A stretch of DNA of 64,000 bases from a bacterium (GCA_963663405.2 CAXXSM010000041.1:1-64000); one strand, 5' to 3'. Shown: positions 9,418 through 21,228, counted from the stretch's first letter. Notes: generated by a model from the letters alone, not told the origin. A program made the numbers and translations.

Positions 9418-11426
9418 GTGAGACAAATACGAATTGAGAAATCGTTGAACGTTTTTTTTCTACTCTTTCTTTTTCTACTGTATCCGATAGCAATCTGGCC
9501 GGATGTTGTTATCAATGAGATCAACTATCATCCACCGGACGACGCGCTTGAAGAATTTATTGAACTCTACAATCCAACGGATCAAGAGATCAATCTCGCT
9601 GGTTATTCCTTTTCAGAAGGCGTTCAATTTTCGTTCTCTCCGTTCGATGTGATTCCACCCAAAGGTTATCTCATCCTCGTTCAACGGCCTGAGGATGTGA
9701 GATGGAGTCACTTCCAAAATCGAATTGTTGGGCCTTATCGCGGAAAACTCGCGAACGAGGGGGAACGGATAACGTTAGTTAATAATGAAGGGGAAATTGT
9801 TGAGTCTGTATATTATTTAGATCAGGCGCCCTGGCCGCTTGGAGCGGATGGGTATGGGGCGTCATTGGAGCGGATTCATCCAGACGCGCCTGCGTATGAT
9901 TTCCATTCCTGGAGACTTTCTCGTTCTACTGGCGGTTCTCCACTGATTCAAAATTCAGTCTATGGCTTTCCTCCTGGACCCGCCCTGCGCGGTATTCGCT
10001 TCACACCGGAACGGCCACGCTCTACGGAATCCACGCAAGTAGAAGTTTTCTTGGATATGGCGGATCAGATCGAGCAAGTAAATCTTTGGGTTCTGCCTAT
10101 GACGGAAACCGCAATTGGGGAAACGTTTGCGATTCCCCTAATCGGTGAGGGATCGAACGAAATTGCCGTATATAAAGGGGAAATTCCTCCGTTCTCTTCC
10201 GAAACTCTCGTTCGAGTGCGAAGCGAGATTCTGCGAACGGATGGGCATGGATTATATTGGCCCGACCGGTTGGAACCGCGTCCTTTTGAATCCTATTTCA
10301 TCTACGATATGAATATCCCCGCCGCGCTTCCAATTCTCTGGCTCTTTGATGGTCCGGTTCCCAATGAATCTGAACATGTCAGGCGGACCGGCGTTGTGAT
10401 TCAGCCCTCTCCAAATTCAATGGTTCAAGTGTTCGATGGCGCCATTGTGGAACCTTCCCGGTCCGGGCAGAAAATCCATTTTCTCAAGGGGGAAGAATAC
10501 GAAGGAAATCGCACGTGGAATCTGCTTTTCCCACATACGCCGGAAATGGGAACCGAAGCGCCCCCACCTCATAGCACCGCCGGTCCAATGACTCCTCATT
10601 TAGAACGGTTGGGATATCAGCTTTACAGCGATTTTGGAGTCCTCTCCCTTGGAACCAGCTGGCATCGCGTGATCGAGCGCGGCAGGCATACGCAGCGCCT
10701 TGTCATTCAACAACCAAACGAAAACTTTCTGGCTCTGAATGGCCGTGATCCAGATGGGGATATCTATAAATTACAGTATGAGAATTGGATTAAGAAAACA
10801 AATCTTGATGAGGGAAGAGAAGAGTTAGAGGCTTTGCTTTGTGTTTTAGAACTGGAAGATCCTGAATTGCGCGGCGCTGGAATGAGGAATTTCTTGGATA
10901 TTCCGGAGATTACCTCCTATGAAGTGGTAACTGTGCTTATCAGTAATTGGGATGGGTTATGGAATAACTTTTTTCTCTATTACGCGCCACCTCCTGTTGA
11001 TCGATGGGAATGCATCCTTGGGATTTAGATCAGACCTGGGGATTTGCGGGTGTGTATGTCAGCATGTTGTATGACATGCCAGTTACATTTCCCATTGACG
11101 GCGTTTCGCGGTTGAGCAAACCACCCGGCCCATTATCCCGTCCCTTTCATCTGGATGAGGAACTAAATCAGCTCTATTTAGATAAAATGCGTGAAGCGCT
11201 GAATGATCAATTCTCTATTGAACGTTTACAAGAAATCCTAATCGAATCCAAAACTCCTTTGTTGGAAGATTTAGACCTTTTGGAAGAATATACGGGTAGA
11301 CCTCGCATGGTTCTGCGCCAGCAGATTGAGGACGCATACAAATATGTTGCTGAATTTATGGAACTTAGGCATGATTATTTAAATGGGATTCTCAATACAA
11401 TGATCGATGATTGGACTCTTTATTAA
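9418..11426 (+). CDS. Lamin-tail-domain + CotH kinase family secreted protein (frameshift near 11020 joins ORFs 9418-11028 and 11004-11426)
   Basis: VVINEINYHP..EFIELYN (LTD); ISNWDG..NNFFLY..RWEC+PWDLDQTWG (CotH) split across two frames; ends IDDWTLY*. Confidence 0.85.
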
Positions 11427-12713
11427 ATGTTTGAATTAAGAAAGGCATATCGTGTGATGTGTTTGATTTTATCGTTCACGATTTGGATAATCGGATCGAT
11501 TCTCCCCAGTTGGGGGAGTGAATTGGATTCAGTAACGATTCCGATATCCGGCCTCGCAAATGACGCCGTTCAATTGGAAATGGAGCCAATCCAGGCTGGC
11601 ACGTTTTTAATGGGCCGTATCTCTGGTGACAATGCGCATGATTATGACGAAGATCCCCAGCATTCTGTAACTCTCACTCGTTCTTTCTATATTGGAAAAT
11701 ACGAAATTACCCAAGCGCAATGGGAAGCGGTCATGGGGAATCAGCCCTCCCGTTTCACCGGGCTGAACCGCCCTGTTGAGTGTGTAAACTGGTATGACGC
11801 GGCGCGTTTTTGCAATGCGTTAAGCGAATCCATTGGATGGGAGCCGGTAATATCAGAAACGAATTGGAAAATCAACGTCGAACTGGGAGGAATCCGCCTC
11901 CCCACCGAAGCGGAATGGGAATACGCCTGCCGGGCGGGAGGGGAGACCGTCTACTCATGGGGCAATGACGCCGCGAGCGCAGTCATCGATCAATACGCAT
12001 GGTATTGGGACAATAGCGGAGCTGTGACGCATGATGTGGGCGCCAAACTGCCTAACGCGTGGGGACTGCACGATCTTAGCGGTAATGTATGGGAGTGGTG
12101 CTGTGACAGGACCGATTCGTTTGGCCGGTATCCAACTTCCGCCGTCGATCCCTTGAATCAATCCACTGCTCTTCCATACCGACCGGGCAGGGGAGGCAGT
12201 TGGTTTAATGGCGCCGAAGCGTGCCGATCCTCCAACCGTGACCGGGGTGATCCTGACAGTTTTAATAGTTTTACTGGATTTCGTATCTGCTTTACATATA
12301 TTCAGCAATCCAGTTCAACAAACTCAGGCCCGATCGTCACCATCACGGATGACGTTCATCATATGGTTGACTTGGCGAACGGACAGGATTTCGATGAAGA
12401 ACAATCCCGCGAACTCGTCATCCGGTGGAATCTCGATCCGGAAGTCGTTGATTTTACCGATATTAAAGACGTACACATCTATACGCGAATCGATAATTCA
12501 GAAGACTATTCCTATCTAGGCCGGACAGGTAATGGAGTGGCGAAACTGTTAGTCTGGAAAGCGAATCAACCCAACATCGAATCACAATTTTCAAACGGCC
12601 CAGAATTCGGCCGATCATACCAATTCCGAATCTTCGCATTAACAAAATCAGGAATCCCCATTGCGCATGGCCCATTCGATTGTGTGGGGAGTGTAGAGTT
12701 CTTGGAACGATGA
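11427..12713 (+). CDS. FGE/SUMF1 (formylglycine-generating enzyme-like) domain protein with extra C-terminal domain
   Basis: GTFLMG, YEITQAQW, RLPTEAEWEYACRAG, NAWGLHDLSGNVWEW, RGGSW, GFR. Confidence 0.9.
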   Translation: MFELRKAYRVMCLILSFTIWIIGSILPSWGSELDSVTIPISGLANDAVQLEMEPIQAGTFLMGRISGDNAHDYDEDPQHSVTLTRSFYIGKYEITQAQWEAVMGNQPSRFTGLNRPVECVNWYDAARFCNALSESIGWEPVISETNWKINVELGGIRLPTEAEWEYACRAGGETVYSWGNDAASAVIDQYAWYWDNSGAVTHDVGAKLPNAWGLHDLSGNVWEWCCDRTDSFGRYPTSAVDPLNQSTALPYRPGRGGSWFNGAEACRSSNRDRGDPDSFNSFTGFRICFTYIQQSSSTNSGPIVTITDDVHHMVDLANGQDFDEEQSRELVIRWNLDPEVVDFTDIKDVHIYTRIDNSEDYSYLGRTGNGVAKLLVWKANQPNIESQFSNGPEFGRSYQFRIFALTKSGIPIAHGPFDCVGSVEFLER

Positions 12714-13417
12714 TTATTAATAGTTTTTTTTGATTTGTATAAAACATAAATCCTCAAACTATCTCCAAACCATCTTCATTTTATCTCCAAAGTCTAAATA
12801 TGGAACTCATCTTGTTGTTAAACTCGCCTTGACTTTTAAGAAAATGTATCATAAATTCGAAAAAAGGTAGAGTGATTTTCTGTATGCAATAATTGTTATG
12901 ATATTGCAATACTGCCAGTAATTTTGACAATCAATATTAGGGCACATCACACAATAAAATTATATCCATCATTGAGGAATTTGAGAATTATATATTGTAA
13001 TTATGCAATCAATAAATTTGGACATAGAATTTCAACTAAAAATATGGACAAAAATAATTGTTTTCATATCAACAAATGTTAATTCTTAGGTATATAACAA
13101 ATGAAACAAAACAGATCCCAAACAGAGAATGATTTAACACAAGCCAGGTCATTAATTCAAAAATGCTTGGATAATCAAGATCATTACCTGGATTTAGGTA
13201 ACTGTGGTATTACTGACTTAAATGACCTACCGGAACTCTTTGAATGCACCCATCTAAAAACTTTGGTTTTAAGCCATGAATATTGGGATTATGAGAAAAA
13301 GGAATGGATAAAAAGTCGTAATATAGGATTCGCAAACAGAATAGAAACAATCCCTTCAGATATTTCTATTCTACAAAATTTAAGGAATTTGTTTCTTAGT
13401 GATACTGGAATCACCAA

Positions 13418-14730
13418 TCTGAGTGTCTTAGAACACCTCACCGGATTACAAACGTTATACCTTAGTAATACTGGACTCACGGATCTGAGTGGCTTAGAAC
13501 ACCTCACCGGATTACAAACGTTAGACCTTAGTAATACTGGACTCACGGATCTGAGTGGCTTAGAACACCTCACCGGATTACAAACGTTAGACCTTAGTAA
13601 TACTGGACTCACGGATCTGAGTGGCTTAGAACACCTCACCGGATTACAAACGTTATACCTTAGTAATACTGGACTCACGGATCTGAGTGGCTTAGAACAC
13701 CTCACCGGATTACAAACGTTAGACCTTGGTTTTAATCAGATTTCCGATCTGAGTGTCTTAGAACACCTCACCGGATTACAAACGTTATACCTTAGTGACA
13801 ATCAGATTTCCGATCTGAGTGTCTTAGAACACCTCACCGGATTACAAACGTTAGACCTTAGTGACAATCAGATTTCCGATCTGAGTGTCTTAGAACACCT
13901 CACCGGATTACAAACGTTAGACCTTAGTGACAATCAGATTTCCGATCTGAGTGGCTTAGAACACCTCACCGGATTACAAACGTTGACCTTAGTGACAATC
14001 AGATTTCCGATCTGAGTGGCTTAGAACACCTCACCGGATTACAAACGTTAGACCTTCGTAATACTGGACTCACGGATCTGAGTGTCTTAGAACACCTCAC
14101 CGGATTACAAACGTTAGACCTTCGTTTTAATAAGATTTCCGATCTGAGTGTCTTAGAACACCTCACCGGATTACAAACGTTAGACCTTCGTTCCAATCAG
14201 ATTTCCGATCTGAGTGTCTTAGAACACCTCACCGGATTACAAACGTTAGACCTTCGTTCCAATCAGATTTCCGATCTGAGTGTCTTAGAACACCTCACCG
14301 GATTACAAACGTTAGACCTTAGTTCCAATCAGATTTCCGATCTGAGTGTCTTAGAACACCTCACCGGATTACAAACGTTATACCTTAGTTCCAATCAGAT
14401 TTCCGATCTGAGTGTCTTAGAACACCTCACCGGATTACAAACGTTAGACCTTGGTTTTAATAAGATTTCCGATCTGAGTGTCTTAGAACACCTCACCGGA
14501 TTACAAACGTTAGACCTTGGTTTTAATAAGATTTCCGATCTGAGTGTCTTAGAACACCTCACCGGATTACAAACGTTAGACCTTAGTTCCAATCAGATTT
14601 CCGATCTGAGTGTCTTAGAACACCTCACCAGATTACAAACGTTATACCTTAGTGACAATCAGATTTCCGATCTGAGTGGCTTAGCACACCTCACCGGATT
14701 ACAAACGTTAGACCTTAGATCAAATCAAAT
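13418..14730 (+). repeat. Tandem array of 20 near-identical 66-bp repeats encoding 22-aa LRRs
   Basis: Unit ttagaacacctcaccggattacaaacgtta(g/t)acctt(a/g/c)gt...gatctgagtg(t/g)c recurs every 66 bp; 20 copies counted. Confidence 0.95.
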
Positions 14731-16772
14731 TAAGGAAATACCATTATTCATATTTCAGTTAGGTATGGAGATAAAATTAGTAGAACATGTTTCTGAAGAT
14801 TTGTGCCTTTATAACAATCCAATTGAATCGCCACCAATGGAGATTCTCCGTCAAGGAGAGCAAGCGGTACTCAACTACTTCCAGGAAATCGAAGCCCAGG
14901 GTGTGGACCAGCTGTTTGAAGCCAAACTGCTAATCGTTGGTGAGGGCGGGGCCGGAAAAACTAGCCTGCTTCGCCGCATGTTCTTTCCCAAAATGAACCT
15001 GCCCACCGAAGACGAAAGCACCCACGGTATCGACATCCATACACATAAATTTCCGATATTCGAAGGACGACGCGATTTCAGGCTCAACACGTGGGACTTC
15101 GGTGGCCAGCAGATTTATCACGCCACGCATCAGTTCTTCTTGACAAAGCGTTCGTTGTACGTGCTGGTCGATGATACGCGGAGGAATAGCCGATCGATCC
15201 ATGACGACGATTTCAAGTTCTGGCTGGAGGTCGTCGATACGCTCAGTGAAAGCAGCCCGCTGTTGATCTTTCAAAACGAGAAAAGCGGGCGAAGCAAACC
15301 AATCGATAAAGCAGGCATTATAAAACACTTTCCCAACGTGCAAGGATTCCATCGCGGTAACCTGGAACATCCGGACGCCGCGGATAGTCTGCGCAAAGCG
15401 GTAGAAGATTCCGCTCAGCATTTGTCTCACATTGGAGAGAATGTACCGGCTAAGTGGATCGCGATTCGTAGGGATTTGGAAAACTTGGCGCAAACAAAAC
15501 CACACATCTCAATAGACAAATATTTCGAGGTCTATGACGATCACCTAGGACTAGATCCCAACAAGGCGCTGCGCCTGAGTCAGTACCTGCATGACCTTGG
15601 TGTGTTCCTGCATTTTCAACAATCGAGGGAGCTGCGTCGTACGGTGTTCCTACAGAACCAGTGGGTGACGAAAGCAGTGTTCCTAATACTTGACGACGAA
15701 CTTGTGAAATCCCAACAGGGCCGGTTCACGCTGGCCGACTGCGACCGCCTGTGGTCCGGAAAGGGCTATGCGGACAAGGATGTGGAATTGCGAACTCTGA
15801 TGGTCCTATTCGAACTCTGTTACCGGCTTCCGGATATGGACAAGGAGACGTGGCTGGTTCCGCAGCACCTTTTACCGTCAACGCCGCCGGAACTGAGCAA
15901 CTGGGCTAAGCCCGGTGACCTGATGCTGACGTACCGCTACGAGTTCCTGCCCAAGGGCCTGGTGAGTCGGCTGATCGTGCGGTTGCACCGTTTCGTGAAG
16001 GATACGAATTTATGCTGGTCGCATGGCGCTTTATTCGAGCATGGCGAGTCACAAGCGCTGGTGGAGACAACCACGAGTGGCAACGAAATCACACTCCGGA
16101 GCCGCGGTCCAGAACAGAATGAACTGATGAGTGTCATCGCGAGCGACCTGGATGCCCTGAACGACAGTTTTCCGGGACTCAAAGAGAAAGTTGGGAAGTG
16201 GGTACCATGCACCTGTAAAACGTGTGCGAGCCTGAATGAACCAGCGATGTTCGAACATAAGGAACTGATCGACCGCAAGAGTCGAGGCAAGCTGACAATC
16301 GAGTGTCCAAAACCGCCTGATTATGCAGATGTCAGCGTACTAGAATTACTCGACGGAATGAATCTGAAGCAATGGCTCGCGCGAGCGAGTAAAGATCTAA
16401 TCCAAAACGACGGTGATTCGACAACATCTATCGAAACGGATCAATCTGTTGTGAATGACGGTGTTGTCATCAAGACTATCCGGATCTTCCTGGCGTCATC
16501 ATCTGAACTTCGTAAGGATCGCGACGCTTTCGATCTGTATTTCAGGCAACAGAACGACCGCCTGCGAAAACAGGGCTTGTACCTTGAGATCGTCCGCTGG
16601 GAGGATTTTCTGGATGCGATGTCTTACACGCAACTGCAGGATGAATACAACAAGGAAATCCGCAATTGCGACATGTTCGTCAGCCTATTTAAGACAAAGA
16701 CAGGTAAGTACACAGAGGAAGAATTTGACGTCGCCCACGAGACCTTCAAGGAAACCGGAAAACCATTAATCT

Positions 16773-19103
16773 CAGACCTCCTGAGCTGGGCCGGGGGATT
16801 CCGTAGAGTTGATGATTTTGGCAAGATACCTTTTTGGGGATAAAAATGATCGATCCAAAAAGGAGCCCAGTTGATGCCACAAGGATTCTTACCCCACTTT
16901 GCCGATGTCGAGGAAGGCTACATCACCGATGTACTCTCGTACCGGAAGCAGGACGGTTCGGTCTATTATTTTCATGGCGCCTTTCCTATTTACACGCATC
17001 CAGAAACCGATCAAAAGAGTTTCCGTTTGATTACCAGTCAGTTTATCGTGAACGGGCAATGCACACAGATGGAGATCGTTCGAGCGTTTGGCGTGAGCGT
17101 GATCAGTGTGAAGCGGTGGGTCAAGAAATACCGGGAAGGTGGAGCGGCGGCGTTTTTTGAAACGCCTCGAACACGAGGCGCGCATGTCTTGACGAAAGAC
17201 GTTCTCCAGCAAGCGCAAGAGTTCTTGAACGAGGGGCTCTCTCGAGCGGAGATCGCCGATCAGTTGGGCCTTAAGCGGAATACGTTGAATAAGGCGATCC
17301 AAGCCGGCCGCCTGGTGGAGCCGCTAAAAAAAACGATGCCGGAGGCCGCCCGAAAAGCGAGCGAAGCGTAGAAGACAGCCAAGCGGCGATGGGGATGGGC
17401 TGTACGCGAATGGTGGAGCGGGTCTGCGCGGCGACCGGGCAGTTGGAGGAAGCCCCGACTCGTTTCGAGACGGAATTGGATGTGGCGCAAGGCGGCGTGT
17501 TATGGGCGATGCCCGCGTTACTCGCCAACGGGCTGCTGAAGAATGTCTCGAAGAACTTTTCTCTCCCCAAAGGATTTTACAGTTGCGTCCACATTTTTAT
17601 TGTGTTGGCTTTCATGGCGTTGACGCGGATCAAAACGCCAGAACAGTTGCGCTATCATCCCGCGGGGGAAGGGGGCAAGTTACTGGGCTTAGATCGAATT
17701 CCCGAAGTGCGGACCCTGCGGGAAAAAATCAAAATTCTCGCCCAACCAGACCAGATCAAAGAATGGGGGGACGAATTGTCCCGGGAGTGGATGGAGGCGG
17801 ATCCGGACGCGGCGGGCGTTTTATATGTCGATGGTCATGTCCGCGTCTATCACGGTTCGCAAACGAAACTGCCCCGCCGCTATGTCGCGCGTCAACGATT
17901 ATGTTTGCGTGGACTCACCGACTATTGGGTGAACGACGGCGAAGGCCGCCCCTTCTTTGTGGTGAGCACTCCATTCACCACCGGCTTGTTGGATCGGCTC
18001 AAACAAGACATTGTTCCACAGTTGCTAAAAGATGTTCCCCATCAACCCACGGCCGAAAACCTTGAATCCAATCCCTATCTCCACCGGTTCGTCCTGGTGT
18101 TCGACCGGGAAGGCTATAGCCCCGGATTCTTCGCTCAGATGTGGGATTCGCGGATCGCGTGTCAAACGTACCGCAAGTTTCAGGGAGAAGATTGGCCAGT
18201 TTCAGAATTCGAGACAGTGAATGTGCGTCTGCCTGGTGGGCATGAATCGCCGATGCGCTTGGCCGAGAGAGGCGTCTTTCTGGGAGGAAAAATCTGGGTG
18301 CGGGAGATTCGCAAGTTGGGGGATACAGGGCATCAAACCGCTGTGATCAGTACGGATTATACATCGGATGCGAGTCAACTGGCGGCGCATATGTTCGCGC
18401 GTTGGTGTCAGGAAAACTTCTTTCGGTACATGATGGAACACTTTCATTTAGATGGACTTATCGGGTATGAAACGGTCTTGCCGGATGAGACGGTGAAAGT
18501 GGTGAATCCGGCCTATCGGAAATTGGAAAGCCAGATCAAAAGCCTGGCGGGGAAAAAGACTCGAAAGCAAGCGGAATTCGGCGCCCTTGTCCTAAAGGAA
18601 TCCTCCGATCCGAAAGAGATCGAATGCTATGAAATCCAGAAAGGCGCCCTCCTTGAAGAGATCGGAGGGATGGAGAAACAACTCGATGAGTTCAAGCGGA
18701 GCCGGAAGCAAACGAAAAAGCATATCGCGTTTGTGGACTTGCCAGAGGAGGCAAAATTTCACCAATTGGCTCCAGCGAAGAAACAATTCATGGATACGAT
18801 TCGAATGATTGCGTATCGGGCGGAAACGGCGATGGTGGCAATCCTGCGGGAGGTGCTGAGCCGGGGAGACGATGCGCGTTCGTTGGCGCGGGAAATCATG
18901 ACCACTGAAGCGGATCTGATTCCCGATGAAAAAAATGAGACTCTCACCATTCGACTCCATCACTTGACCAACCGCCTTTCCGATCAAGCCGCCCGCCATT
19001 TGGCCGCTCAATTGAATGAAACCGAAACCATTTATCCTGGCACGAATCTACGTCTCGTTTACCAATTGGTGTCAGATCAATATCCCCCAGATCAGGAGGC
19101 CTG
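16773..19103 (+). mobile_element. Complete insertion sequence (~2331 bp) with DDE transposase, imperfect 18-bp terminal inverted repeats and 5-bp target duplication AATCT
   Basis: Left end cagacctcctgagctggg versus reverse complement of right end caggcctcctgatctggg (16/18); AATCT at 16768-16772 and 19104-19108; removing it restores CCA TTA ATC TAC ACG (PLIYT) in the host gene. Confidence 0.93.
16871..17371 (+). CDS. IS OrfA, helix-turn-helix DNA-binding part of the transposase
   Basis: EIVRAFGVSVISVKRWVKKYREGG and SRAEIADQLGLKRNTLNKAI HTH motifs; RBS AGGAG; A8 run at 17326-17333. Confidence 0.85.
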   Translation: MMPQGFLPHFADVEEGYITDVLSYRKQDGSVYYFHGAFPIYTHPETDQKSFRLITSQFIVNGQCTQMEIVRAFGVSVISVKRWVKKYREGGAAAFFETPRTRGAHVLTKDVLQQAQEFLNEGLSRAEIADQLGLKRNTLNKAIQAGRLVEPLKKTMPEAARKASEA

Positions 19104-19104
19104 A
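17389..19104 (+). CDS. IS OrfB, DDE transposase catalytic part (probably fused to OrfA by a -1 frameshift)
   Basis: LYVDGH...LVFDREG...RWCQENFFRY DDE triad; lies in the -1 frame relative to OrfA and is open back to the A8 run. Confidence 0.88.
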   Translation: MGMGCTRMVERVCAATGQLEEAPTRFETELDVAQGGVLWAMPALLANGLLKNVSKNFSLPKGFYSCVHIFIVLAFMALTRIKTPEQLRYHPAGEGGKLLGLDRIPEVRTLREKIKILAQPDQIKEWGDELSREWMEADPDAAGVLYVDGHVRVYHGSQTKLPRRYVARQRLCLRGLTDYWVNDGEGRPFFVVSTPFTTGLLDRLKQDIVPQLLKDVPHQPTAENLESNPYLHRFVLVFDREGYSPGFFAQMWDSRIACQTYRKFQGEDWPVSEFETVNVRLPGGHESPMRLAERGVFLGGKIWVREIRKLGDTGHQTAVISTDYTSDASQLAAHMFARWCQENFFRYMMEHFHLDGLIGYETVLPDETVKVVNPAYRKLESQIKSLAGKKTRKQAEFGALVLKESSDPKEIECYEIQKGALLEEIGGMEKQLDEFKRSRKQTKKHIAFVDLPEEAKFHQLAPAKKQFMDTIRMIAYRAETAMVAILREVLSRGDDARSLAREIMTTEADLIPDEKNETLTIRLHHLTNRLSDQAARHLAAQLNETETIYPGTNLRLVYQLVSDQYPPDQEA

Positions 19105-19318
19105 ATCTACACGTATTTCAAGAAGACCACCGTCACGACTAACGCAAGAAAACGTAACGATCTGAATTCACTGTGGGACTTTCAGGAGAAACTCAAAGAT
19201 CTTGGACATTTCCAAACGGAGTACACATCAATCGCCGACCTGCAGAAACAATTCCGGGATCAACTGGATAAGCTACGGATGAGCGGTAAACTGTGAGAGG
19301 CGCAACTCATCCCTATCG

Positions 19319-19561
19319 TTAGCTAATACCCTTCAACCTTTTCACTTTCGCAAGAGATACCACATTCGATCCATACCGCTCCAGCATCTCTGCAAGAGTA
19401 TCCTGCGCAAGATGTGCGTACACCTCAGTAGTAGCCTGCGTAGACTGATTCAACGCCTTCCCAATCATAAGAAGAGGTTCCCCGGAAGAAGCCAACATAG
19501 ATCCCGCCGTCCGCCTCAGATCGTGAATTCGAAGATCCGGCATCCCCGCCCGTTCATGCAC
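19319..19561 (-). pseudogene. C-terminal remnant of a tyrosine recombinase/phage integrase
   Basis: AGMPDLRIHDLRRTAGSMLA...IGKALNQ...TTEVYAHL (HxLR box and catalytic Tyr); N-terminal part missing. Confidence 0.8.
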
Positions 19562-19641: not shown

Positions 19642-21228
19642 TCAAACATCCGATATATTCTCCCACCGCATACCCAGTTTTCGCGCCGCGTAGCCCACTT
19701 CTTTCAAATAATCACCATAGACCATCATCCAGTGGGAATCGCGGACTTCGCTGAGCAGTTTCTTCCACTGTCCTTGAATGCGGACATCCTGTTGTGAACG
19801 GCAGATTGGGAGGAAGGGATTGTCCTCGACGTTCCCACGGAAGCCGATCCAACGCCCGGTGGCGTATTCTGGATCGATGAATGTGACTTCTTGGCCAATG
19901 GGGATATCAACCTTCGGCGCGGCTCCATAATCGGATTCTTCATGGGTGTAGATCGTTGTAGGTTCGTAACGGTCCGCATTCATACGGCGGGGCGCGGAAC
20001 AGTGCGCGCAGGTTACGATGCCATTATGCGGGAAGGTCGAATTGTGCAGGAAGACGGGCGTTCCAGTGATGTGGCGTAAAAGAATCCCTGCGGGAATAAT
20101 GACGAAATCCGACTCACAAAACGCGAGAAGTCCTTCATCATTTAAGAGACCGAGTGTCAGACACGCCGTGGTTTTTGAGATGGGAATGACAACGCTCATA
20201 CAGTCTTTAATCGTAAACGCTGTCGCGCCGTTTTCCGCCATGAGTTCTTTAAAGAGTCCATATAAGAGAAACGCGTTCACAATAAATTGCTGATCCGTTT
20301 TTATTGTGGTCTTAGGAATGGAGAGATACGTTTCCGTCCATTGTTTCGCCAACGCCATTTTTCTGGAATCTTTCAGCGCGCCGCGAATCCGGTCTTCCAC
20401 TTGGCCGTAACCGATTTCGATCAGATCCATCCCAAATTTTTCGCGCGCCAGCTGCGGCGCTTCAGACGCGTATTTTCCCCATACGCCACCCAGCGCCACG
20501 ATTTTTGTTCCGCGAAAGTTTTTGACGCCATATAAGGCTCGCAGACGCCATAAGAGTTCATCGCAATCATCGACGACGATATCATCGACATGTGTTTTTC
20601 CCAATCTTGTCGTCCGGGCGCCGGGTGTGTCTTTCTCAGTCTGCAGGTAGACTGTGCTGAGCCCTTCATACCAATAATACGTCGCGCCGGATCGATGCCG
20701 CGCAAAGATGATCGCGTTTCCATCCGGTGGTGTGCAGGCTTGGAGCAGTTGACCTGATCCAGACGCTGGATAGACGATTACGATATCATGATCACTCTGC
20801 CGCGCTCGTTCCGCGTCTTCGGTGGTTTTGACTTTTTGGACAGGGAGTATCTCCAAAGGAAACTCAGCCTTTTCGGAAAGAGAATAGAGTTCCTTGTCAA
20901 TGCGGTCAGCCTCTTTCGCCGCTGATTCATCACTTAACACATCGCCCCAGGATCGCCACGATCTTTCTTTCCTTGGCGTCGCGACGGTGTACATAAGTAT
21001 CGGCTGCACCCGTAGAGGCTTGCCATAATTCACAAATTGAGCGTTGGGATTCCAACTATCCTCTTCCCAAACCGTTTTCCGCTCCGCCTCGGCTCCTAAG
21101 GCGGATATTCCATAGAGAGCCGCGGAAAATCCCGCGCCGCTTTGTACAAACGACCGGCGGGAAAGCGTGTGACTTTGATCGTTGGTCTTCGAACTAGGTA
21201 ATATAGATTGTTTGTGTTGTTCCGTCAT
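19642..21228 (-). CDS. Tat-signal L-fucose/L-arabinose isomerase-like protein
   Basis: LSRRSFVQSG twin-arginine; CESD and AHC metal-ligand motifs; CRSQ..DSHW C-terminus typical of the FucI/AraA-like fold. Confidence 0.7.
   Translation of the reverse strand: MTEQHKQSILPSSKTNDQSHTLSRRSFVQSGAGFSAALYGISALGAEAERKTVWEEDSWNPNAQFVNYGKPLRVQPILMYTVATPRKERSWRSWGDVLSDESAAKEADRIDKELYSLSEKAEFPLEILPVQKVKTTEDAERARQSDHDIVIVYPASGSGQLLQACTPPDGNAIIFARHRSGATYYWYEGLSTVYLQTEKDTPGARTTRLGKTHVDDIVVDDCDELLWRLRALYGVKNFRGTKIVALGGVWGKYASEAPQLAREKFGMDLIEIGYGQVEDRIRGALKDSRKMALAKQWTETYLSIPKTTIKTDQQFIVNAFLLYGLFKELMAENGATAFTIKDCMSVVIPISKTTACLTLGLLNDEGLLAFCESDFVIIPAGILLRHITGTPVFLHNSTFPHNGIVTCAHCSAPRRMNADRYEPTTIYTHEESDYGAAPKVDIPIGQEVTFIDPEYATGRWIGFRGNVEDNPFLPICRSQQDVRIQGQWKKLLSEVRDSHWMMVYGDYLKEVGYAARKLGMRWENISDV

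What the first reader, a model, noticed from the sequence alone, without database searches (positions are those of the whole stretch)
13101..19296. Bacterial LRR-Roc-COR receptor with a TIR/DUF4062-like effector: candidate NLR-analogous immune system
Seen: the reconstructed gene has an N-cap, about 21 LRRs, a Roc GTPase, COR (with a CxCxxC...C motif) and a C-terminal domain IFLASSSEL..R..W..CDMFVSLFKTKTGKYTEEEF..A..KPLIYTYFK. Established: DUF4062/TIR/nucleoside-deoxyribosyltransferase-like folds use a conserved Glu to cleave NAD+ or nucleotides and act as effectors in anti-phage systems; Roc-COR acts as a GTP-dependent dimerisation switch. Inference: a sensor-switch-effector chain in which LRR recognition of a foreign ligand activates a toxic or signalling domain. 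The AT-rich upstream flank and adjacent integrase remnant fit a horizontally acquired defence gene.
Basis: partly seen in the sequence, partly recalled or inferred. Interest (0 to 1): 0.75.

Follow-up and report, generated by a model that had tools for sequence, protein, structure and literature searches.

The report
Broken Roco sensor gene with TIR-like effector
This is a dead copy, cut by a jumping gene and a one-base deletion, of a widespread bacterial LRR-GTPase protein whose tail looks like an NAD-destroying immune enzyme, a kind of sensor already predicted on paper but never tested.

Summary
Window 13101-19296 (+) is one gene of about 1286 codons: N-cap, about 21 LRRs, Roc GTPase, COR-A/COR-B with a Cys cluster, and a 162-aa C-terminal domain. 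It is broken by a 1-nt deletion near 13985 and by a 2333-bp IS at 16772-19104 with a 3-bp target duplication. The tail at 19105-19293 aligns to the C-termini of intact homologues.

The C-terminal domain is a divergent relative of DUF4062/NIR, which three 2026 preprints report as TIR-like NADases.
- It scores below Pfam's cut-off, but 53 of 57 relatives give weak DUF4062 hits.
- hhalign against canonical DUF4062 gives 91.9% probability.
- The AlphaFold2 model (pLDDT 82.9) matches TIR and nucleoside-deoxyribosyltransferase folds best (Z 10-12.3).
- The putative catalytic Glu is present in 57 of 57 relatives.

Closely related Roc-COR modules carry true TIR_2, SEFIR, EAD11 or cyclase domains at the same position. 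The same domain also heads NACHT and NB-ARC proteins.

Defence-island context is weak, and there is none in this window. The gene is absent from 34 of 34 related genomes, which fits horizontal acquisition.

The concept of an LRR-GTPase-COR protein with a variable effector was predicted by Kaur et al. 2021. The NADase and antiphage functions are inferred, not shown.

The parts
12714..13100 (.). AT-rich intergenic flank upstream of the gene
   Evidence: GC is 0.32-0.35 in the 500-bp windows covering 12500-13500, against 0.40-0.58 elsewhere in 9-23 kb. No ORF with a Pfam hit lies here.
13101..13379 (+). Start codon and N-terminal cap before the regular LRR array (frame 0)
   Evidence: The frame 0 translation from the ATG at 13101 precedes the 66-bp array.
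13380..14760 (+). LRR array of about 21 repeats of 22 aa. It is coded by near-identical 66-bp units, in frame 0 up to about 13985 and in frame 2 afterwards.
   Evidence: TRF finds period 66, 19.7 copies, 94% matches, at 13417-14718. The LEHLTGLQTL core occurs 20 times. LRR_4 and LRR_8 score E 1e-37 to 1e-59.
13974..14003 (+). Frameshift: one 66-bp unit lacks one base near 13985 compared with all other units
   Evidence: The unit-by-unit print shows the register slipping by one base from the row at 13974 onwards. Frame 0 closes at 14013-14015 and frame 2 continues the same repeat.
14924..15280 (+). Roc GTPase domain (P-loop and DxxGQ present)
   Evidence: Pfam Roc E 1.6e-21, residues 308-426 of window:14003-16840. 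The region aligns to CtRoco 6hlu/8r4b, E 2e-120 for LRR-Roc-COR.
15446..15871 (+). COR-A domain
   Evidence: Pfam COR-A E 4.8e-34, residues 482-623.
15920..16357 (+). COR-B domain. Its end holds the conserved CxCxxC...C cluster (16208-16306).
   Evidence: Pfam COR-B E 7.7e-29, residues 640-785. The Cys cluster is conserved in the 8 full-length homologues of alignment A1. The alignment to CtRoco stops just before it.
16358..16471 (+). Variable linker between COR-B and the C-terminal domain
   Evidence: This stretch is poorly conserved in A1.
16472..16771 (+). C-terminal TIR-like (DUF4062/NIR-like) domain, first 100 aa. It includes the FLASS, RWE and TEEEF motifs.
   Evidence: Searches show 60-87% identity to homologues. 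One search gives DUF4062 at 21.6 bits, under the cut-off. One search gives hhalign probability 91.9%. Searches give the fold. Searches give the invariant residues.
16772..19104 (+). Insertion sequence of 2333 bp. It has 19-nt inverted ends (16772-16790 and 19086-19104), an HTH ORF (16871-17371) and a Transposase_29 ORF (17389-19104). The ATC target duplication lies at 16769-16771 and 19105-19107.
   Evidence: Inverted repeat I3 is 89% complementary. The sequence is shown. Pfam Transposase_29 scores E 2.2e-206 and the HTH families are also hit. The own genome holds 12 full-length copies at 93-100% identity, one of them identical.
19105..19296 (+). C-terminal TIR-like domain, last 63 codons plus stop (frame 1)
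   Evidence: This piece aligns end to end with the C-termini of intact homologues. The A2 profile matches it at E 1.2e-23.
19319..19561 (-). Remnant of a tyrosine recombinase (C-terminal catalytic part only)
   Evidence: Pfam Phage_integrase E 1.3e-5, 25.5 bits (cut-off 27.1), profile positions 118-170 of 172.

Best explanation
The locus is a recently inactivated gene for a single-chain, NLR-like sensor of the Roco (Roc-COR, 'AP-GTPase') family.

The intact protein of about 1286 aa would have four parts:
- a fast-evolving LRR array as the ligand-binding part;
- a Roc GTPase with COR-A/COR-B as a nucleotide-dependent conformational and oligomeric switch, as in CtRoco;
- a small Cys cluster;
- a C-terminal 162-aa TIR-like domain of the DUF4062/NIR superfamily as the output.

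Most likely mechanism (inferred): binding of an invader-derived ligand to the LRRs changes the Roc-COR nucleotide or oligomer state. That change brings the C-terminal domains into an active assembly. With its invariant Glu, this assembly cleaves NAD+ or a related nucleotide and stops growth of the infected cell.

In this genome the gene is dead. A 1-nt deletion splits the LRR region. An active IS (12 copies in the genome) has cut the effector domain after its fourth strand. The gene was probably acquired horizontally.

Shown: the architecture, the two breaks, the fold, remote homology to DUF4062, conservation of the Glu, effector swapping and patchy distribution.
Inferred: the ligand, the coupling, the substrate and the role in defence.
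For: Architecture and breaks.

The IS is active and the insertion is recent. There are 12 full-length copies, one 100% identical, and the 3-bp duplication is intact. Apart from the two breaks, no other stop interrupts the reading through 13101-16771 and 19105-19293.

Effector domain:
- 53 of 57 relatives hit DUF4062 at E<=0.1 (best 1.2e-5), 50 of 57 hit NPHP3 and 42 of 57 hit TIR_2. The next family reaches only 4 of 57.
- hhalign against 7 canonical DUF4062 sequences gives probability 91.9% and E 7e-7 over 91 columns. It pairs the first strand motif and the T-E-x-E-F/Y..A motif.
- The AF2 model has pLDDT 82.9 and pTM 0.80.
- The best structural matches are TIRAP (Z 12.3), 7m5h (12.2), the TIR of SfSTING (12.2), MilB (12.1), the MAL TIR (12.1), NDT (11.9), RPS4 and MyD88 TIR domains, SARM1 (10.8) and ThsB (10.4). 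Small GTPases appear only from about Z 10.1.
- E94 is present in 57 of 57, E54 in 57 of 57 and W53 in 56 of 57.
- DUF4062 is reported as an NADase effector whose conserved Glu is required for defence. I saw this as abstracts and passages of three 2026 bioRxiv preprints.

Effector position and module behaviour:
- 67 of 80 genome loci carry the domain at the C-terminus of a Roc/COR ORF.
- Roc-COR modules 58-80% identical carry other domains at that position: TIR_2 above its cut-off, SEFIR, EAD11 or a nucleotide cyclase. One such tail is unrelated to this domain.
- The same domain heads NACHT, NB-ARC, iSTAND and nSTAND proteins.

Switch: CtRoco is dimeric without nucleotide and monomerises on GTP binding (passages of PMC11052575).

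Prior prediction of the kind: Kaur et al. 2021.

Horizontal origin: 0 of 34 related genomes have the domain. The flank is AT-rich and an integrase remnant lies next to the gene.
Against: - The domain does not reach Pfam's gathering score for DUF4062, NPHP3 or TIR_2. It has no sequence relative in the PDB.
- The fold is the common flavodoxin-like one. Small GTPases score only about 2 Z units lower, and Foldseek mixes Ras, TIR and NDT hits at E 6e-5 to 1e-3.
- PADLOC does not recognise the protein.
- Genomic context does not mark it as defence. The window holds polysaccharide-utilisation genes.
- In 25 homologous loci most of the 146 nearest ORFs are metabolic. Only 10 hit PADLOC at E<=1e-10, and 6 of those are generic (ABC-F, a small-domain methyltransferase, a DEAD-box helicase, RecD). 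No background rate was computed.
- The effector is unusually conserved for an immune effector: 60-87% identity across phyla.
- GTP drives CtRoco apart rather than together. How a Roc-COR switch would assemble a TIR-like active site is therefore not obvious.
- No experiment on any bacterial Roco protein in defence turned up in my searches.
Confidence: 0.6

Rival explanations
1. The C-terminal domain is a nucleotide or nucleoside N-glycosidase of the deoxyribosyltransferase type (like MilB or DNPH1), not an NADase. The sensor would deplete or modify a nucleotide pool such as CMP or dNMPs when triggered.
For: MilB (Z 12.1), several nucleoside 2'-deoxyribosyltransferases (Z 10.2-11.9), RCL (10.8) and YtoQ (10.5) score as high as TIR domains. 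Foldseek also lists MilB, DNPH1 and NDT. According to the passages, DUF4062 lies between TIR and NDT, and the Avs2 effector was first annotated as a CMP hydrolase.
Against: All DUF4062 members tested in the three preprints hydrolysed or depleted NAD+. The Pfam weak hits go to DUF4062, NPHP3 and TIR_2, and none of the 20 families listed is an NDT family.
Confidence: 0.12
2. The domain is a signal-making TIR-like enzyme or a non-catalytic assembly and adaptor module. The Roco protein would then pass a signal to a separate effector, or scaffold a complex, rather than kill by NAD+ depletion.
For: The preprint discussion read raises both options for NIR domains. Some DUF4062 domains lacked NADase activity there. 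The very high conservation of the domain across phyla would fit a conserved partner or product. Related Roc-COR proteins carry adaptor-type EAD11 domains at the same position.
Against: No conserved neighbouring gene that could be the receiver was found in 25 loci. The Glu and the surrounding motif are invariant in 57 of 57, which argues for catalysis.
Confidence: 0.12
3. The protein is a housekeeping signalling GTPase unrelated to conflict with phages or other invaders. It might regulate metabolism or cell behaviour. Its loss here would be neutral decay of an accessory gene.
For: Neighbourhoods are mostly metabolic genes. PADLOC gives no hit. The sequence is highly conserved. The biological role of bacterial Roco proteins, CtRoco included, did not appear in the passages I read.
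Against: - The gene is patchily distributed (1 of 35 genomes) and found across many phyla at 60-87% identity.
- The LRR repeat array is hyper-repetitive.
- Effectors are swapped with TIR_2, SEFIR, EAD11 and cyclase domains.
- The domain is shared with NACHT, NB-ARC and STAND proteins.
- It was inactivated by an IS.

All of these are hallmarks of conflict systems as described by Kaur et al..
Confidence: 0.1
4. The frameshift is an assembly or sequencing error in the repeat array. Only the IS insertion would then be a true lesion.
For: The deletion lies in a 1.3-kb array of 94%-identical 66-bp units. The genome is a 170-contig draft. Read support is about 2-fold and comes from contigs only.
Against: The missing base is not in a homopolymer. 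No contig of run X2 showed an alternative indel (table 4), though cover of that very place was not shown.
Confidence: 0.3

Closest known systems
Prokaryotic 'AP-GTPase'-centred counter-invader systems (Kaur, Iyer, Burroughs, Aravind 2021, eLife 10:e70394; passages read)
   Same: The layout is the same: fast-evolving N-terminal LRRs, an AP-GTPase (Roc), COR, and a variable C-terminal effector. They list TIR, DRHyd, caspase, trypsin, FGS, GT4 and EADs among at least 24 domains. I re-found the swapping with TIR_2, SEFIR, EAD11 and a cyclase.
   Different: Their text does not name DUF4062. I could not see their Figure 6D or its source data, so I cannot tell whether this domain is among their 24, perhaps counted as 'TIR'. 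Their claim is computational, and this copy is a pseudogene.
DUF4062 / NIR TIR-like NADase effectors: PsAvs2, Vulcan, Vesta, Swarozyc (KpSwz), Evangelion (Eva01), human TEP1 (three bioRxiv preprints of 2026; abstracts and passages)
   Same: - The fold is TIR-like.
- A first-strand motif, a W-E type motif and a Glu-aromatic catalytic motif lie at matching places.
- The model shows a helix, a short strand and a helix after the fifth strand. This resembles the helix, small sheet and stalk helix described for KpSwz (against the passage).
- The domain is used as the effector of NLR-like proteins.
   Different: - It scores below the Pfam cut-off for PF13271.
- It sits at the C-terminus behind a Roc-COR GTPase, not at the N-terminus of a STAND ATPase or before a small sensor domain.
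- None of the three main texts contains 'Roc', 'Roco', 'LRR' or 'GTPase'. 'Leucine-rich' occurs once, in the phrase NLR-like.
- Activity is untested.
Chlorobium tepidum Roco (CtRoco; PDB 6hlu, 8r4b, 3dpu)
   Same: It is the best solved relative of the LRR-Roc-COR part: E 2.2e-120, aligned from the LRRs to the end of COR-B. It is the model for the GTP-driven dimer-to-monomer switch.
   Different: The alignment ends before the Cys cluster. CtRoco's last 150 residues, which gave no density, show no sequence similarity to this domain.
Human LRRK2 and DAPK1 (eukaryotic Roco proteins)
   Same: LRR-Roc-COR core. LRRK2 chains match at E about 1e-38 over the LRR-Roc-COR part.
   Different: Their output domain is a protein kinase. 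Here it is a TIR-like domain.
Canonical TIR and nucleoside 2'-deoxyribosyltransferase folds (SARM1, ThsB, SPARTA TIR-APAZ, MilB, DNPH1)
   Same: Fold match at Z 10-12.3, covering residues 7-172 of the model.
   Different: Sequence identity is 5-19%. No Pfam cut-off is reached for TIR_2, and no NDT family appears among the 20 families listed there.

Membership tests
Roco (Roc-COR) proteins | Roc GTPase domain with a P-loop, directly followed by COR-A and COR-B | tested here: met
   Pfam Roc 1.6e-21, COR-A 4.8e-34 and COR-B 7.7e-29, in that order. P-loop and DxxGQ motifs are visible in the translation. CtRoco matches at E 2.2e-120.
Roco (Roc-COR) proteins | GTP binding and hydrolysis, and a nucleotide-dependent dimer/monomer cycle | not testable with these tools
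   Known for CtRoco only (passages of PMC11052575).
Roco (Roc-COR) proteins | Intact open reading frame in this genome | tested here: not met
   A 1-nt deletion near 13985 and an IS at 16772-19104. The genome holds no second copy of the C-terminal domain.
AP-GTPase-centred conflict systems (Kaur et al. 2021) | N-terminal LRRs, then AP-GTPase and COR, then a C-terminal effector position filled by different domains in relatives | tested here: met
   Architecture. Of the 120 closest Roc-COR proteins listed, 18 have PF13676, 3 have EAD11 and 1 has a cyclase. TIR_2 (37-46 bits, cut-off 28), SEFIR, EAD11 and Guanylate_cyc were confirmed at the C-terminus of 8 proteins. The P0268 tail is unrelated to A2.
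DUF4062 / NIR (PF13271) | Score above Pfam's gathering threshold (24.7 bits) | tested here: not met
   16.6 bits, and 21.6 bits for the domain alone. Close homologues score 15.7-20.8 bits.
DUF4062 / NIR (PF13271) | Remote homology by consistent weak hits and profile-profile comparison | tested here: met
   53 of 57 members hit DUF4062 and 50 of 57 hit NPHP3 at E<=0.1. hhalign gives probability 91.9%, E 7e-7, 91 columns, against only 7 canonical sequences.
DUF4062 / NIR (PF13271) | TIR-like alpha/beta fold with a five-stranded parallel sheet | tested here: met
   The AF2 model has pLDDT 82.9 with five alternating strands and helices. Top matches are TIR and NDT domains, Z 10-12.3.
DUF4062 / NIR (PF13271) | Conserved catalytic Glu at the start of the helix after the third strand | tested here: met
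   E94 is present in 57 of 57. It lies in helix 89-105, after strand 78-83, and aligns to the T-E-x-E motif of canonical DUF4062. The window copy keeps it. No 3-D superposition on a solved active site was made.
DUF4062 / NIR (PF13271) | NAD+ hydrolysis and Glu-dependent phage defence | not testable with these tools
   Needs enzyme and plaque assays.
DUF4062 / NIR (PF13271) | Enrichment near known defence genes | tested here: inconclusive
   8 of 25 loci have a conflict-type Pfam neighbour. 10 of 146 ORFs hit PADLOC, 4 of them specific. There was no background control. The window itself has none.
Canonical TIR (PF13676 TIR_2) | Score above the gathering threshold (28 bits) | tested here: not met
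   Weak hits only: 42 of 57 at E<=0.1, best 2e-5, and 17.8-20.5 bits in homologues.
Nucleoside 2'-deoxyribosyltransferase-like (MilB, DNPH1) | Sequence or profile match to the family | tested here: inconclusive
   The fold matches at Z 10-12. No NDT family is among the 20 Pfam families listed for the 57 members.
Insertion sequence with a Transposase_29 (PF21804) transposase | Terminal inverted repeats, a target-site duplication, a transposase ORF and multiple copies | tested here: met
   19-nt inverted repeats, ATC on both sides, PF21804 at E 2e-206, and 12 full-length copies.

The most novel reading that the evidence does not exclude
A large subfamily of bacterial Roco proteins, spread across phyla, would be GTPase-gated NADases. 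Roc-COR would replace the STAND ATPase of classical NLRs as the switch that arms a divergent NIR/TIR-like effector. Because this effector falls below the DUF4062 model threshold, the 2026 surveys of that family may have missed it. If so, bacterial Roco proteins would gain their first defined biological output, and the LRRK2-type Roc-COR switch would gain a simple enzymatic read-out.
Probability: 0.4. Interest if true: 0.7.

Novelty: new member of a known kind. Interest (0 to 1): 0.5.

Why it matters
In what I read, bacterial Roco proteins are studied mainly as structural models of the Parkinson's disease kinase LRRK2, and no cellular function was stated for them. This locus belongs to a large subfamily:
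- 451 proteins matched in the length-limited search.
- 2133 clusters at 50% identity hold the domain.
- The best 80 of 104 matching genome stretches come from many phyla.

The output of this subfamily is a TIR-like domain related to the newly described DUF4062/NIR NADases. That makes a concrete function testable: GTPase-controlled NAD+ depletion in response to an invader. It would also extend the NLR-like logic of sensor, nucleotide switch and NADase from STAND ATPases to a Ras-like GTPase.

For this genome the practical message is simpler. The gene is an IS-disrupted pseudogene and should be annotated as such.

Tried and rejected
- The search for related loci with alignment A1 failed because it had no conserved stretch. 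I repeated it with the 100-aa window piece.
- A sequence search of the PDB with the domain or with its profile gave only chance hits: a MarR regulator at E 0.055, YqeY, and uS13 at E 1.3.
- PADLOC on the window's pieces gave one marginal hit on the 63-aa tail (PDC-S60, E 0.0076). I took it as chance.
- The homodimer prediction for the C-terminal domain gave no answer (score 0.12, mark 0.42).
- Synteny test for an insertion. The left flank gene belongs to a 43-copy FGE-sulfatase family. The right flank gene has orthologues in 18 of 19 family genomes. The four neighbourhoods I fetched share nothing else with the window in the same arrangement, so the test is inconclusive.
- No tRNA gene lies in 8-26 kb as a possible integration site.
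- Reads. Only Logan contigs were available, at about 2-fold depth. Runs X3 and X1 hold only parts, at 90-97% likeness, from other organisms or from IS copies.
- The idea that CtRoco's unresolved last 150 residues are the same domain is rejected at the sequence level.
- Figures and supplements of the papers could not be seen. Figure 6D and its source data in Kaur et al., and the supplementary architecture figures of the DUF4062 preprints, may already list this fusion.

Full report
WHAT IS THERE

On the + strand, window 13101-19296 holds one long gene in three reading-frame pieces. Frame 0 opens at the ATG at 13101 with a cap of about 93 aa and then enters a leucine-rich-repeat array. Tandem Repeats Finder reports 19.7 copies of a 66-bp unit, 94% alike, at 13417-14718. 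The core LEHLTGLQTL occurs 20 times, 9 in frame 0 and 11 in frame 2.

Pfam on the pieces gives:
- LRR_4 and LRR_8 at E 1e-37 to 1e-59;
- Roc at 1.6e-21;
- COR-A at 4.8e-34;
- COR-B at 7.7e-29;
- a sub-threshold DUF4062 hit (E 0.0095, 16.6 bits against a cut-off of 24.7) on the last part before the frame closes.

The CxCxxC...C cluster sits at 16208-16306, at the end of COR-B. It is kept in all eight full-length homologues that I aligned.

THE TWO BREAKS

First break. The 66-bp unit that starts at 13974 is one base shorter than every other unit, and the register slips from there on. This moves the reading from frame 0 to frame 2.

Second break. A 2333-bp insertion sequence lies at 16772-19104.
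- It has 19-nt inverted ends.
- The triplet ATC stands on both sides.
- It carries an HTH ORF and a 571-aa Transposase_29 ORF (E 2e-206).
- The genome holds 12 full-length copies at 93-100% identity, one of them identical to this copy. The element is therefore active and this insertion is young.

Across the IS the protein reads ...GKPLI | YTYFKK.... The 63-codon tail at 19105-19293 aligns end to end with the C-termini of intact homologues. The two pieces of 100 and 63 aa, less the duplicated codon, give 162 aa. That is the distance from domain start to stop in most of the 80 homologous loci.

No other stop interrupts the reading through 13101-16771 and 19105-19293, so the decay looks recent.

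Public contigs of run X2 hold 98% of the sampled words. They follow the gene from 14689 to 16801, which is 30 nt into the IS, and show no indel row. Depth is about 2, and this run may be the source sample. The 1-nt deletion could still be an assembly error in the repeat array. The IS insertion is well supported.

THE C-TERMINAL DOMAIN

A search restricted to residues 790-923 found 451 proteins of 507-1616 aa. Nearly all are Roc-COR proteins, from cyanobacteria, Nitrospira, Nitrosomonas, Methylococcales, Planctomycetes, sulfur-oxidising symbionts and others. They are 60-84% identical in this domain. An exhaustive phmmer run found 2133 clusters at 50% identity with E<=1e-3, and 1271 with E<=1e-10.

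In one genome per species, 104 stretches matched and the best 80 were kept. They come from Planctomycetota, Chlorobiales, Cyanobacteria, Bacteroidota, Desulfuromonas, Acidobacteriota, Nitrospirales, Verrucomicrobiae, Chloroflexota, Polyangiaceae and more.

Among the ORFs that hold the domain in those 80 loci:
- 67 also contain Roc and/or COR;
- 51 have Roc, COR-A and COR-B;
- 42 of those have LRRs like the window's.

An alignment of 57 such domains (A2) has 17 invariant columns. Scanned one by one against Pfam at E<=0.1:
- 53 of 57 hit DUF4062 (best 1.2e-5);
- 50 of 57 hit the NPHP3 domain (best 1e-6);
- 42 of 57 hit TIR_2 (best 2e-5);
- the next family reaches only 4 of 57.

hhalign of A2 against seven canonical DUF4062 sequences gave probability 91.9% and E 7e-7 over 91 columns. 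It pairs the first-strand motif and the T-E-x-E-F/Y..A motif. The seven sequences were five from related genomes and the middle domains of P0062 and P0063.

AlphaFold2 on A2 gave pLDDT 82.9 and pTM 0.80. The model has five alternating strands and helices, followed by a helix, a short strand and a last helix.

A full scan of 48,161 solved chains ranked these highest:
- TIRAP (Z 12.3);
- an Enterococcus protein, 7m5h (12.2);
- the TIR of SfSTING (12.2);
- MilB (12.1);
- the MAL TIR (12.1);
- a deoxyribosyltransferase (11.9);
- the RPS4, IL-1RAcPb and MyD88 TIR domains (11.7-11.9);
- SARM1 (10.8);
- ThsB (10.4).

Small GTPases begin at about Z 10.1. Foldseek gave a mixed list of Ras, TIR, MilB, DNPH1 and NDT at E 6e-5 to 1e-3.

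The Glu of the TEEEF motif is present in 57 of 57 sequences, as are the Glu of the RWE motif and the FLASS serines. The window copy keeps them all. The domain has no sequence relative in the PDB.

In short, it is a TIR/NDT-like fold and a divergent sister of DUF4062, but not a member by Pfam's own threshold.

WHAT IS KNOWN ABOUT SUCH DOMAINS

Three bioRxiv preprints of 2026 report that DUF4062 (renamed NIR in one) is a TIR-like NADase. I read their abstracts and text passages. They report that its conserved Glu is required for phage defence in Avs2, Vulcan, Vesta, Swarozyc and Evangelion, and that human TEP1 has the activity.

The same texts say that NWD1, NWD2 and NPHP3 showed no activity under the tested conditions. 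They also note that NIR domains might make signals or act as interaction modules.

None of the three main texts contains 'Roc', 'Roco', 'LRR' or 'GTPase'. 'Leucine-rich' occurs once, within 'NLR-like'. Their supplements were not available to me.

THE ROC-COR PART AND THE PUBLISHED PREDICTION

The best solved relative is CtRoco (6hlu, 8r4b; E about 1e-120). The alignment ends at the end of COR-B, before the Cys cluster. Passages of Galicia et al. 2024 describe CtRoco as a nucleotide-free dimer that monomerises and opens on GTP binding, with no density for its last 150 residues. That tail is not detectably related to the domain here.

Kaur et al. 2021 (eLife 10:e70394; passages) already describe 'prokaryotic conflict systems centred on the AP-GTPase'. 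These have rapidly evolving N-terminal LRRs, then the GTPase and COR, and then a C-terminal position filled by at least 24 different domains, including TIR, DRHyd, caspase, trypsin, FGS, GT4 and EADs.

My searches found no experimental test of any bacterial Roco protein in defence. The searches were 'Roco'+'anti-phage', 'Roco proteins'+'prokaryotic'+'TIR', 'Roc-COR'+'phage', 'Roco'+'bacterial'+'NADase' and 'AP-GTPase'.

EFFECTOR SWAPPING

A search with the Roc-COR part (residues 300-790) found 6479 proteins at E<=1e-20. Among the 120 best, which are 58-80% identical:
- 18 carry PF13676;
- 3 carry EAD11;
- 1 carries a nucleotide cyclase.

A Pfam scan of eight of them confirmed, at the C-terminal position:
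- TIR_2 above its cut-off (37-46 bits);
- SEFIR together with TIR_2;
- EAD11;
- Guanylate_cyc.

The tail of P0268 has a Roc-COR 78% identical to the window's, yet it shows no relation to A2 (hhalign probability 0.1%).

Conversely, the A2-type domain stands at the N-terminus of NACHT-HEAT/TPR, NB-ARC-TPR and iSTAND proteins. It also occurs with EAD11, FGE-sulfatase-like, GUN4, AAA_35, nSTAND, TIR_2 and canonical DUF4062 domains. It behaves as a mobile effector module of NLR-like proteins.

CONTEXT

The window around the gene codes for a glucuronyl esterase, a sulfatase, an NHL-repeat protein, an LTD/CotH protein, an FGE-sulfatase-like protein, a beta-lactamase-family hydrolase, a sugar isomerase and a transporter. 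It is not a defence island.

For 25 full-length homologues I scanned the three nearest ORFs on each side, 146 ORFs in all. I left out loci L069 and L070 and one 3122-aa ORF of L038 to fit the size limits. Most of the ORFs with a Pfam hit are metabolic or housekeeping genes.

Conflict-type families appear in 8 of the 25 loci:
- SLATT_2;
- ParE with MazG-like;
- HsdM with a RecD2-type helicase;
- CopG/BrnT;
- nSTAND1;
- a Tse2-like ADP-ribosyltransferase;
- FitA;
- patatin with RHS.

PADLOC at E<=1e-10 hit 10 of the 146 ORFs. Only four hits are specific: a type I methylase, TIR-TM, PDC-M05A and DEDDh. There is no conserved partner gene. I computed no background rate, so this neither supports nor refutes a defence association.

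The gene is patchy. The A2 profile finds it in this genome only, out of the 35 species genomes held for its phylum. The other 34 have none; they are 68-99% complete, 17 of them at or above 92%. Together with the AT-rich flank and the integrase remnant, this fits horizontal acquisition. A direct synteny test was inconclusive.

MECHANISM AND VERDICT

I read the intact protein as a single-chain sensor.
- The LRRs bind a trigger.
- Roc-COR converts binding into a change of nucleotide and oligomer state.
- The C-terminal NIR-like domains are thereby allowed to assemble and cleave NAD+ or a related nucleotide through the invariant Glu, which arrests the cell.

The domain order, fold, motif conservation and module swapping are shown. 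The trigger, the coupling, the substrate and the biological role are inferred.

One difficulty is that GTP drives CtRoco apart, whereas TIR-type enzymes usually need to come together. The coupling may therefore differ from that of NLRs. A homodimer prediction of the domain gave no answer.

In this genome the gene is a pseudogene. The finding is a further member of a predicted but untested kind. Its interest lies in tying a very large Roco subfamily to the newly characterised DUF4062/NIR NADases.

Noticed in passing
window 9418-11426 (+): Two overlapping ORFs, 9418-11028 (LTD domain) and 11004-11426 (the last third of a CotH domain, profile 206-322 of 322), look like one CotH-type gene split by a frameshift.
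   Followed up: no
window 16772-19104; own genome contigs C27, C143, C133, C122, C118, C155, C53, C22, C112, C164, C38: The Transposase_29 IS has 12 full-length copies at 93-100% identity in the 8.44-Mb draft genome, plus two fragments. In run X3 a related IS end has a different flank (loose end before 16767).
   Followed up: partly
window 11427-12713 (+): The FGE-sulfatase-like gene just upstream belongs to a family with 43 matches in this genome and 6-56 in its relatives. The same Pfam domain is fused to the NIR-like domain in other organisms (P0256, P0253, P0199, P0209). Whether the adjacency here means anything was not tested.
   Followed up: no
P0062, P0063 (534 and 536 aa): These proteins carry three TIR-type domains in a row: TIR_2 (E 9e-17), canonical DUF4062 (E 2.7e-17) and the domain studied here.
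   Followed up: partly
L009, L011, L013 (Candidatus Thiodiazotropha MAGs), ORFs of 354 aa: The domain ends a 354-aa protein with no Roc or COR. The N-terminal 190 aa are unidentified, and the phmmer envelope 61-291 hints at a second, weaker copy.
   Followed up: no
L017, L024, L045, L047, L059, L062, L065, L066, L072, L078: In 10 of the 67 Roc/COR-linked loci the ORF that holds the domain starts inside COR, although the contig goes on upstream. In L024 a 575-aa ORF abuts it. Either split Roco genes are common or MAG assemblies carry frameshifts.
   Followed up: no
window 19642-21228 (-): This 528-aa protein has no Pfam family. It is conserved at 64-71% identity in 13 of 19 genomes of the family, with one or two more distant paralogues each.
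   Followed up: no
window 13417-14718: The LRR units are 94% identical at the DNA level. Differences cluster in the stretch that codes the few residues before the conserved DLS. This suggests recent unit duplication or conversion.
   Followed up: no
L044:10591-10863 (-), L001:10928-11860 (-): Directly downstream of two full-length homologues lie a 91-aa fragment matching PADLOC TIR-TM (E 1e-24) and a SLATT_2 membrane effector (E 1.9e-26).
   Followed up: no
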